Assembly (NCBI GenBank): GCA_001767695.1
Contig: MELR01000011.1
Span: 192-64,191, forward strand
Source: Actinobacteria bacterium RBG_16_68_21
GTDB taxonomy: Bacteria; Actinomycetota; Acidimicrobiia; Spongiisociales; UBA11373
Reading direction: 5' to 3'
Length of the DNA stretch: 64,000 nt
Made by a program: the position numbers and the translations under genes. The notes under the pieces are model-generated. The model was not told the origin of the DNA. It saw nothing but the letters and a program-made list of their open reading frames with translations, and ran no database searches. Positions 63,778-63,900 of the stretch are shown here, piece after piece. The number at the start of each line of letters is the position of its first letter. Position 1 is the stretch's first letter.

Positions 63778-63900
63778 CGGCAATTGGCAATTGGCGGCGT
63801 CCGCTATCCCCTATCCGCTGTCCGCAATTGGCAATTGGCCAACCGGGAGTCTTACGGGAAACTGGAAACCGGAAACACGGGCGACTGGCGACTGGCGACG
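63778..63900. repeat. Compound heptamer-periodic array (locus F): (GGCAATT)2 ... CTATCCC CTATCCG CTGTCCG (CAATTGG)2 CCAACCG GGAGTCT TACGGGA AACTGGA AACCGGA AACACGG (GCGACTG)2 GCGACGC
   Basis: About 14 consecutive in-register heptamers fill the whole ruvB-queA spacer. Confidence 0.85.

What the first reader, a model, noticed from the sequence alone, without database searches (positions are those of the whole stretch)
63778..63900. The ruvB-queA spacer is a mosaic of at least five different heptamer units in one register
CTATCCC CTATCCG CTGTCCG CAATTGG CAATTGG CCAACCG GGAGTCT TACGGGA AACTGGA AACCGGA AACACGG GCGACTG GCGACTG GCGACGC, preceded by (GGCAATT)2. Adjacent blocks of distinct units, each 2-3 copies, kept in a common phase. 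This points to a generating mechanism (templated or slippage-based expansion) rather than chance. It is the presumed promoter region of the queA-tgt-yajC-secD-secF operon.
Basis: seen in the sequence. Interest (0 to 1): 0.7.

Follow-up and report, generated by a model that had tools for sequence, protein, structure and literature searches.

The report
Hypervariable 7-base repeat blocks before queA
The gap between ruvB and queA in this uncultured actinobacterium is filled with short blocks of different 7-base tandem repeats that change quickly between near-identical strains by copying slippage, which makes it a new example of a known but poorly understood class of bacterial repeats rather than a new mechanism.

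Summary
The 7-nt periodicity at 63778-63900 is real: lag-7 self-identity is 0.63 against 0.26 in shuffles (z 9.5). It consists of five blocks of four unit types, each 2-4 copies, not "at least five" types.

The "one register" claim fails where it can be tested:
- The same unit GCAATTG occurs at two offsets that differ by 2 mod 7.
- Self-identity falls to background at lags of 28 and above.

The spacer is one of six array-bearing intergenic spacers in the window. Relatives with 66-79% QueA identity carry arrays in the orthologous spacer.

Metagenome contigs 99.8-100% identical to the window carry three different spacer alleles. Other arrays differ by unit copy number or unit swaps. This is what replication slippage on simple-sequence repeats produces.

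In unrelated metagenomic (GTCGCCA)n arrays, in-phase blocks of one-substitution variants are common, so mosaics need no special generator.

A candidate queA promoter is conserved across lineages: TTGCCA, 18 nt, CACACT, 9 nt, ATG. Its -35 element lies in the last CAATTGC units.

Verdict: a new member of a known kind (intergenic heptameric SSRs/VNTRs, as in Xanthomonas, Nostoc and the Haemophilus hmw loci). Interest is moderate.

The parts
63902..64000 (-). 3' end of ruvB (stop codon TAG is the reverse complement of 63902-63904)
   Evidence: Identical to the 3' end of the gene with RuvB_N/AAA/WHD_RuvB Pfam hits in L012.
63752..63901 (-). ruvB-queA intergenic spacer, 150 nt, allele A
   Evidence: Bounded by the ruvB stop and the queA ATG. 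Three alleles exist in contigs 99.8-100% identical elsewhere.
63880..63899 (-). Block (GGCGACT)2.9. On the sense strand this reads (A/C)GTCGCC x3 and starts 1 nt after the ruvB stop
   Evidence: TRF 100% match. The first 2.5 units are conserved in allele B. The GTYNYYN unit type follows stop codons in relatives.
63857..63876 (-). Block (GGAAACN)2.9, sense GTTTCCN x3. It is out of phase with the GTCGCCN block by 2 nt
   Evidence: A related block lies at 12078-12102. The same unit occurs in L013, L019 and L028.
63848..63855 (-). Non-repeat island, sense GTAAGACT, conserved in alleles A, B and C between the variable arrays
   Evidence: Alignment of alleles. Unique in the window. Function unknown.
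63824..63839 (-). Block (GCAATTG)2.3, sense CAATTGC, upstream copy
   Evidence: Its flank GGTTG(G)CCAATTGCCAATTGCGG is shared with the 12 kb spacer.
63800..63825 (-). Block (TCCGCTA)3.7, imperfect (CTATCCC, CTATCCG, CTGTCCG). One of the two blocks in the window whose + strand is not G-rich
   Evidence: This unit is not repeated elsewhere in the window.
63779..63795 (-). Block (GGCAATT)2.4, sense CAATTGC, promoter-proximal copy
   Evidence: Offset from the other GCAATTG block is 44 nt, which is 2 mod 7.
63785..63790 (-). Candidate -35 hexamer TTGCCA, formed by the junction of two CAATTGC units
   Evidence: TTGCCA, TTGCGC or TTGCGG lies 18 nt upstream of CACACT in the three alleles of the window species and in L013, L016 and L018. 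TTGGAA or TTGGCA lies at 17 nt in L019 and L028. Inference only; no transcript data.
63761..63766 (-). Candidate -10-like hexamer CACACT, 9 nt before the queA start codon (near-leaderless)
   Evidence: Exact CACACT in 7 of 9 lineages or alleles tabulated, at 6-12 nt from the start codon. Below the threshold of the consensus scanner.
62741..63751 (-). queA (336 aa), start ATG at 63749-63751
   Evidence: PF02547. The N-terminus MKTAEFFY is conserved.

Best explanation
The spacer is non-coding DNA built from short heptanucleotide simple-sequence-repeat blocks. It is one of many such intergenic arrays in this uncultured Acidimicrobiia-like actinobacterium and its relatives.

How the blocks arise (inferred from the population data): a 7-nt unit, or a point-mutated copy of one, is duplicated or deleted by strand slippage during replication or by unequal recombination. 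Small indels and occasional replacement of whole blocks break the phase.

How far the arrays extend: they fill the space between two constrained elements. One is the ruvB stop codon. The other is a conserved, near-leaderless queA promoter (TTGCCA, 18 nt, CACACT, 9 nt, ATG). The -35 hexamer of that promoter is supplied by the junction of the last two CAATTGC units, so gain or loss of units upstream leaves the promoter geometry intact.

Shown: the periodicity, the genome-wide and lineage-wide family, the polymorphism between near-identical strains, and the conserved promoter-like layout. Inferred: slippage as the molecular process, and promoter activity.
For: 1. The periodicity is specific to 7 nt and is local to each block.
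2. All six large array clusters in the window lie in intergenic spacers.
3. Contigs from other samples are 99.8-100% identical to the window outside arrays, but they differ at the arrays:
- ruvB|queA has alleles A (window, L023), B (L012, L024) and C (L020). Fifty of the 60 differences between L012 and the window fall within 63772-63880.
- B and C differ by (GCGAGTT)3(GCGAATC)1 against 2+3.
- The secF|apt array differs by unit swaps at constant length.
- The pilC|pilin (CCAAGGT)n array has about 7 copies in the window (TRF 7.3), about 12 in L032 and at least 12 in L035.
- The 29 kb array has one unit more in L031.
4. Several assemblies break inside these arrays.
5. Relatives at 66-79% QueA identity have period-7 arrays with other or related units in the same spacer.
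6. In 80 unrelated metagenomic (GTCGCCA)n loci, 18 run in phase into a second repeated unit. Seventeen of those 20 second units are one substitution away.
7. The promoter layout is conserved in 8 of 9 sequences tabulated.
8. Published precedent: heptameric SSRs are over-represented in intergenic regions of many bacteria, vary in length and sequence between close relatives, and are attributed to polymerase slippage (PMC4692102).
Against: Alleles A and B differ by about 50 positions and by whole unit types (GTTTCCN, CAATTGC and GGATAGC against GTCGCCN, GCGAGTT and GCGAATC), while the flanks are about 99.9% identical. Single-unit slippage alone does not account for this. It needs many steps, an old balanced polymorphism with recombination, or exchange with other arrays.

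Non-repeat bases next to the arrays also differ between alleles (GCGAGTGTGACC against GCGTGCTTGACC).

Unit types recur at orthologous positions across lineages whose neutral sites should be saturated. They are also strand-biased: 20 sense against 4 antisense for GTYNYYN, and C>G in 38 arrays against 16. A purely neutral process does not predict this.

Promoter activity is untested, and CACACT is a weak -10.
Confidence: 0.75

Rival explanations
1. The arrays are selected cis-regulatory modules, not just tolerated slippage products. Pyrimidine-rich GTYNYY arrays directly after stop codons would act at the RNA level in 3'-end formation or termination (for example as C-rich, G-poor loading sites for Rho). 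TTGCNA-type arrays would supply and tune -35 and upstream promoter elements. Slippage would then make these spacers contingency-like loci that vary expression of housekeeping operons within a population.
For: Unit types recur at orthologous positions in lineages with 66-79% QueA identity. GTYNYYN units are 20 sense against 4 antisense, with a random expectation of 5%. The sense strand is C-rich in 12 of 14 blocks of the window. The sense RNAs of the window's ruvB|queA and secF|apt spacers are no more structured than shuffles (z +1.05 and +1.26). The -35 hexamer is embedded in the last units. Precedent for a functional heptamer SSR: Haemophilus hmw (ATCTTTC)n (PMC12721329).
Against: Allele B lacks CAATTG, GTTTCC and GGATAG units altogether, yet sits in an equally close genome. 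Orthologous arrays are absent in L016/L017. In the wider metagenomic set, the orientation of (GTCGCCA)n relative to neighbouring genes is mixed. In L019 and L028 the arrays form long hairpins instead. No expression or termination data exist.
Confidence: 0.2
2. The blocks of allele A were imported from other heptamer arrays of the same genome by ectopic recombination or gene conversion (or by a very small mobile module). The mosaic would then reflect shuffling of a genomic 'unit library' rather than in-place evolution.
For: The GCAATTG dimer occurs at 6 sites in 5 spacers, always in the same orientation. Ten of the 12 CAATTG sites lie in 1.4% of the window. The 12 kb and 64 kb spacers share GGTTG(G)CCAATTGCCAATTGCGG and the block order TTTCC-type then CAATTGC-type. 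The spacer allele does not track flank divergence.
Against: Shared segments are essentially the repeat units plus 2-4 flanking bases. No donor was found for the GGATAG or GTTTCC blocks in the 155 loci held. There are no terminal inverted repeats or target duplications. Only 64 kb of the genome could be searched.
Confidence: 0.1
3. Units are added by a templated enzyme (telomerase-like, reverse transcriptase/DGR-like or primase-like) that copies a 7-nt template.
For: Only the constant 7-nt period with varying unit sequence, and the large A/B allele difference.
Against: At least a dozen unrelated unit sequences occur, which would need many templates. Variation is by whole-unit gain, loss or swap, typical of slippage. 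The same unit arrays occur in very diverse metagenomic backgrounds, GC 0.25-0.75. No template repeat is evident. The window's proteins were not scanned for a reverse transcriptase.
Confidence: 0.03
4. Chance or assembly artefact.
For: Short-read assemblers handle repeats badly, and several contigs end inside the arrays.
Against: z 9.5 for lag 7. Alleles A and B were each recovered independently from two samples or assemblies. The spacers of L013, L014 and L015 are identical across three samples and two assemblers. The array is shorter than the k-mer (141) of the assemblies.
Confidence: 0.01

Closest known systems
Intergenic heptameric SSRs of Xanthomonas, (GGGAATC)n / (GGGANTN)n, and Nostoc PCC 7120, GGGGA(T/C)T (Rehm et al. 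2015, PMC4692102; over-representation of heptameric SSRs attributed there to a 2007 survey)
   Same: Unit of 7 nt. Intergenic. Hundreds of loci per genome in those species and many per 64 kb here. Heterogeneous units within an array. Usually 2-8 copies. Mostly the same gene neighbours but 'extensive length and sequence variation' between close relatives. Some arrays arranged as inverted pairs (seen here in L019 and L028). Slippage proposed as the origin.
   Different: Those families have one dominant G-rich unit able to form G-quadruplexes. This spacer has four unrelated units, none with a GGG tract, and no G4 motif. The host is an uncultured high-GC actinobacterium. Several unit families coexist and recur across related species.
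Cyanobacterial STRR heptanucleotide repeats (Calothrix/Anabaena; cited in PMC4692102; unit sequences from my own knowledge)
   Same: Several different tandem heptanucleotides dispersed in intergenic DNA of one genome. Function unknown.
   Different: The unit sequences differ: no CCCCAGT, TTGGTCA or CAACAGT dimers in the window. Different phylum.
Haemophilus influenzae hmw1A/hmw2A (ATCTTTC)n phase-variable heptamer SSR (PMC12721329)
   Same: A pyrimidine-rich heptamer array upstream of a gene, copy number variable within populations by slippage, and contig breaks in short-read assemblies. In the relatives L019 and L028, the array pairs with a downstream G-rich array in a long hairpin, as in the hmw 5'-UTR.
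   Different: The hmw array is one homogeneous unit with at least 11 copies, lies downstream of the promoter in the 5'-UTR, and has a proven effect on expression through RNase III. Here the blocks have 2-4 copies, lie upstream of or overlap the candidate -35, fold no better than shuffles (z +1.05), and have no tested effect.
TAACTGA direct repeats of Beggiatoaceae, cyanobacteria and Bacteroidetes (MacGregor 2015, PMC4679880)
   Same: Abundant intergenic heptamer direct repeats, 2-6 copies per set, found in distant lineages without an evident transfer mechanism.
   Different: A single unit, mostly a few nucleotides upstream of start codons. TAACTGA is absent from the window. Here the arrays more often abut the upstream stop codon.

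Membership tests
Bacterial intergenic heptanucleotide SSR / VNTR arrays | Head-to-tail copies of a 7-nt unit, two or more copies, beyond chance | tested here: met
   TRF finds five blocks. Lag-7 identity is 0.63, z 9.5.
Bacterial intergenic heptanucleotide SSR / VNTR arrays | Non-coding, intergenic location | tested here: met
   Lies between the ruvB stop (63902-63904) and the queA ATG (63751). The only ORF of at least 40 aa listed across it is the TTG-started extension of queA.
Bacterial intergenic heptanucleotide SSR / VNTR arrays | Period 7 specifically over-represented in the genome | tested here: met
   95 exact 7-mer tandem dimers against about 10 expected. Periods 8-12 are at or near expectation (period 9: 3 against 0.6), but period 6 is also raised (102 against 37). 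Tested on 64 kb only.
Bacterial intergenic heptanucleotide SSR / VNTR arrays | Unit-number or unit-order polymorphism between closely related strains (slippage signature) | tested here: met
   flanks are 99.8-100% identical.
G-quadruplex-forming heptamer repeats (GGGNATC type) | Each unit carries a run of at least three G, with at least four units, giving a G3N1-7 x4 motif | tested here: not met
   No such motif on either strand of 63752-63901. Another array in the window (44001-44052) does meet it.
Cyanobacterial STRR repeats | Units CCCCAGT, TTGGTCA or CAACAGT in tandem | tested here: not met
   0 dimers in any rotation on either strand.
Phase-variable (contingency) promoter or 5'-UTR SSR | SSR placed so that copy number changes promoter spacing or UTR structure | tested here: inconclusive
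   The arrays lie upstream of, and overlap, the candidate -35. The distance from the last unit to CACACT is the same (18 nt) in alleles A, B and C, so spacing would not change. There are no transcript data.
Phase-variable (contingency) promoter or 5'-UTR SSR | Copy-number change alters expression | not testable with these tools
   Needs reporter fusions or RNA data.
REP/BIME/MITE-like dispersed elements | Imperfect palindrome or terminal inverted repeats, with copies of defined length | tested here: not met
   The main inverted repeats come from the self-complementary CAATTG blocks; one further weak pair (16 nt, 75% complementary) was also listed. The fold is no better than shuffles. Similarity to other spacers is limited to the repeat units.
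Known RNA families (riboswitch, sRNA, leader) | Match to an Rfam covariance model at gathering score | tested here: not met
   The only hits in the window are the 16S rRNA (1-172) and an FMN riboswitch (15466-15586).
Diversity-generating retroelement target | Template repeat plus a reverse transcriptase nearby, and adenine-specific substitutions | not tested
   The window's proteins were not scanned for a reverse transcriptase. The observed differences are whole-unit changes, not A-specific ones.

The most novel reading that the evidence does not exclude
In this Acidimicrobiia lineage the heptamer arrays may be a conserved two-part intergenic architecture under selection. Pyrimidine-rich GTYNYY arrays abutting stop codons would act in transcript 3'-end formation (for example Rho loading). 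TTGCNA-type arrays would supply -35 elements for near-leaderless promoters. Slippage would then make the spacers of housekeeping operons (ruvCAB / queA-tgt-yajC-secDF / apt-relA) hypervariable expression-tuning loci in a free-living, non-pathogenic bacterium.
Probability: 0.15. Interest if true: 0.6.

Novelty: new member of a known kind. Interest (0 to 1): 0.38.

Why it matters
Heptameric SSRs are known to be over-represented in bacterial intergenic DNA, but their cause and function remain largely unexplained. This lineage offers a clear natural case for three reasons:
- Several unit families coexist.
- The arrays sit at orthologous spacers across species.
- The spacer is about 45% divergent between strains whose flanks are about 99.9% identical.

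That makes it a usable system for measuring slippage dynamics. It also allows a test of whether unit sequence and strand bias reflect selection or mutation bias.

Practically, these arrays break short-read metagenome assemblies. They could also serve as strain markers.

Tried and rejected
- Exact-anchor scan of metagenome contigs for more alleles of this spacer: 0 hits.
- Rfam: nothing in the spacer.
- Consensus promoter and terminator scan: 0 sites. The promoter proposal rests on cross-lineage conservation instead.
- RNA folding of the window's spacer: no structure beyond shuffles. A structured RNA or terminator hairpin was therefore rejected for this allele, although L019 and L028 do form array-array hairpins.
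- Search for donors of the allele-A blocks among all fetched loci: none.
- Idea that (CCAAGGT)n at 34105-34155 supplies Shine-Dalgarno motifs for an adjacent start codon: rejected. The called pilin gene starts about 130 nt further downstream and has its own AGGAGG.
- Test of whether (GTCGCCA)n always lies on the sense strand after a stop codon in unrelated metagenomic loci: mixed result with crude gene calls, so no conclusion. The count of more than 120 contigs with this unit cannot be read as enrichment, because no other unit was scanned.
- Literature search for heptamer repeats in Acidimicrobiia: no paper found in the held library.
- One paper search failed on term length.

Full report
**Locus.** All genes at this end of the window are on the minus strand. 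The ruvB stop codon (TAG) is the reverse complement of 63902-63904. queA starts at the ATG at 63749-63751 (MKTAEFFY...). The spacer is therefore 63752-63901, 150 nt. Two metagenome contigs encoding the identical QueA show the order ruvC-ruvA-ruvB-spacer-queA-tgt-yajC-secD-secF-apt-relA, with the expected Pfam domains. The 100%-identical QueA is labelled by NCBI as coming from a MAG 'Actinobacteria bacterium', and the next relatives are Acidimicrobiia MAGs.

**Observation.** Tandem Repeats Finder reports five period-7 blocks between 63779 and 63899: (GGCAATT)2.4, (TCCGCTA)3.7, (GCAATTG)2.3, (GGAAACC)2.9 and (GGCGACT)2.9.
- Lag-7 self-identity of 63778-63900 is 0.629 against 0.257 +/- 0.039 in shuffles, z 9.5.
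- In the whole window, only periods 7 and 14 give strongly self-matching 42-nt windows.
- Exact tandem 7-mer dimers are about nine times more frequent than expected, 95 against about 10.
- The mosaic is therefore real. It contains four repeated unit types, not at least five, and three of the listed heptamers are unrepeated filler.

**The register claim.** For unlike units a phase cannot be defined. Where it can be tested, it fails.
- The two GCAATTG blocks begin at 63780 and 63824, an offset of 44, which is 2 mod 7.
- On the sense strand the series reads C-GTCGCC A-GTCGCC A-GTCGCC C-GT-GTTTCCG GTTTCCA GTTTCCC, with two extra bases between the blocks.
- Self-identity drops from 0.63 at lag 7 to 0.40 at lag 14 and 0.31 at lag 21. 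It is at background (0.16-0.25 against 0.254) for lags 28-56.
- By contrast, allele B of the same spacer, which has longer homogeneous arrays, keeps 0.58 at lag 28 and 0.46 at lag 42.

**A genome-wide and lineage-wide family.**
- Period-7 arrays fill six intergenic spacers of the window: 11998-12105, 28946-29089, 34104-34248, 43809-44055, 58308-58428 and 63752-63901. They are essentially absent from coding sequence.
- The GCAATTG dimer occurs seven times at six sites, all on the + strand, with none expected. Ten of the 12 CAATTG sites lie in these spacers, which make up 1.4% of the window.
- GGAAACN recurs at 12090. The CTATCCN unit is unique to this spacer.
- Twelve of 14 blocks are G-rich on the + strand, that is, C-rich on the sense strand.
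- Relatives with 66-79% QueA identity (L001, L013, L018, L019, L028, L029) also carry period-7 arrays in the ruvB-queA spacer, and several also in the secF-apt and yebC-ruvC spacers. The units are different or related: CGTTGTT x9, AGTTACC/AGTTTCC, CGTCTCC, CCCGTTT, AGTCTCC, GAATTGC, GGGTAAC. L016/L017 have almost none.
- In a census of 57 period-7 arrays in this clade, 20 have a rotation matching GTYNYYN on the sense strand against 4 on the antisense strand. The random expectation is 5%. C>G holds in 38 arrays against 16.

**Population variation.** Contigs from other samples are 99.8-100% identical to the window outside the arrays. The ruvB-queA spacer nevertheless exists in three alleles:
- Allele A is found in the window and in L023.
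- Allele B is found in L012 and L024.
- Allele C is found in L020.

Fifty of the 60 differences between L012 and the window lie in 63772-63880. The conserved anchors are the first 2.5 GTCGCC units after the stop codon, the island GTAAGACT, and the last 23 nt before the ATG.

B and C differ by (GCGAGTT)3(GCGAATC)1 against 2+3, plus three substitutions in the adjacent non-repeat bases. A and B share no unit types between the anchors. The allele carried does not track flank divergence: the allele-A contig L023 is 99.82% identical to the window and the allele-B contig L024 is 99.91%.

Other arrays behave as classical VNTRs:
- The secF-apt array differs by unit swaps at constant length.
- (CCAAGGT)n between pilC and the pilin gene has about 7 copies in the window (TRF 7.3), about 12 in L032 and at least 12 in L035.
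- The 29-kb array has one more unit in L031.
- Several assemblies end inside these arrays.

**Generality of mosaics.** Of the 80 loci fetched, 18 continue in phase into a second tandemly repeated unit. In 17 of those 20 second units, the unit is one substitution from GTCGCCA. In-phase mosaics are what mutation followed by slippage produces, so they need no special generator. This scan cannot say whether this unit is enriched relative to other units.

**What is constrained in the spacer.** When the spacers of all lineages are anchored on the start codon, a common layout appears. TTGCCA, TTGCGC or TTGCGG is followed by 18 nt, then CACACT, then 9 nt, then ATG or GTG. This holds in alleles A, B and C and in L013, L016 and L018. 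L019 and L028 have TTGGAA or TTGGCA, then 17 nt, then CAGACT or CACACT, then 6-7 nt. L001 lacks the upstream hexamer.

In the window, the -35-like TTGCCA (63785-63790) is the junction of the last two CAATTGC units. The -10-like CACACT is at 63761-63766. The secF-apt spacer has TACAAT six nucleotides before the apt ATG in the window, L012, L013, L019, L028 and L029. That fits a habit of leaderless promoters in this clade.

The strict consensus scanner finds nothing, and there are no transcript data.

The sense RNA of the window's spacer folds no better than shuffles (z +1.05). In L019 and L028 the two arrays are mutually complementary and form long hairpins (z -3.3 and -4.2). The spacer contains no Rfam family, no G4 motif and no notable inverted repeat other than those made by the self-complementary CAATTG blocks.

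**Interpretation.** The best-supported reading is that the spacer is a set of hypermutable heptanucleotide SSR blocks. They are generated and turned over by slippage or unequal recombination, and they are bounded by the ruvB stop codon and a conserved queA promoter whose -35 lies in the last units.

Two observations are not fully explained:
- The size of the A/B difference.
- The recurrence and strand bias of unit types across lineages.

These keep two ideas open: selection on the arrays (as a regulatory or termination module), and exchange between arrays. Neither could be tested here. Templated synthesis has no support.

**Comparison with known systems.** The phenomenon matches the known class of intergenic heptameric SSRs.
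- PMC4692102 describes (GGGANTN)n in Xanthomonas and GGGGAYT in Nostoc. It reports the general over-representation of heptameric SSRs, length and sequence variation between close relatives, inverted arrangements, and the slippage hypothesis.
- PMC4679880 describes TAACTGA repeats.
- PMC12721329 describes the functional (ATCTTTC)n of the Haemophilus hmw loci.
- None of those units occurs in tandem in the window, and no paper on such repeats in Acidimicrobiia was found.

I therefore classify the finding as a new member of a known kind.

Noticed in passing
window 34105-34155 (also L031, L032, L034, L035): The (CCAAGGT)n array between pilC and a pilin gene is a copy-number VNTR. It has about 7 copies in the window, L031 and L034, about 12 with one 5-nt unit in L032, and at least 12 in L035. 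Three contigs end in or just after it.
   Followed up: yes
window 43997-44053: (GCGGGTT/GCGGGCA)8 is organised as a perfect 28-nt higher-order repeat (2+2 units). It gives two G3N4 G-quadruplex motifs on the + strand, which is the template strand of the flanking genes.
   Followed up: partly
L019 9880-9959; L028 9887-9955 and 15374-15460: In two related species, the first and second heptamer arrays of a spacer are reverse complements, for example (CCCGTTT)n and (GGGTAAC)n. They fold into long hairpins (z -3.3 to -4.2), which recalls the hmw 5'-UTR hairpin of Haemophilus.
   Followed up: partly
L012 585-807 (yebC-ruvC spacer of the window's species, outside the window): A 276-nt spacer made almost wholly of heptamer blocks. 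A module '(NGTCKCC)2-3 + AGCAAGAC' is repeated three times. Similar G(C/T)AAGAC motifs follow the first array in other spacers (window 63848-63855 and 58391-58397, and L013).
   Followed up: no
window 60636-60820, 29314-29459, 54325-54456: Coding 24/27-nt tandem repeats encode Thr-rich low-complexity inserts (TTTTT.. in SecD). Similar repeat units occur in two other genes. The SecD of this species has no precomputed Pfam hit, unlike its relatives.
   Followed up: no
window 33356-33382: A 12-nt coding tandem repeat (CGAGGATCGCAA) differs by one unit (a 12-nt indel) between the window and L031.
   Followed up: partly
L023 5442-5554: In one contig of the same species, the sequence after the secF stop codon is unrelated to the usual secF-apt spacer. 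This is a rearrangement, an insertion or a chimeric contig end.
   Followed up: no
window 1-172 and 15466-15586: The 5' end of a 16S rRNA gene (minus strand) lies at the window edge. An FMN riboswitch (minus strand, 108 bits) is also present.
   Followed up: no
window about 24300-38800: A type IV pilus gene cluster (two PilB/T-like ATPases, PilC, two pilin-like genes, prepilin peptidase, PilM/N/O) lies next to shikimate-pathway genes, according to the Pfam labels of the co-linear contig L031.
   Followed up: no
L006 6430-6580; L036-L115: Long heptamer arrays occur in unrelated bacteria: (CCCCTCG) of about 23 copies in a Lentisphaeria MAG, and (GTCGCCA)n in at least 120 metagenomic contigs, including very AT-rich ones (L049, GC 0.25). 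Many of these arrays abut stop codons of neighbouring genes.
   Followed up: partly
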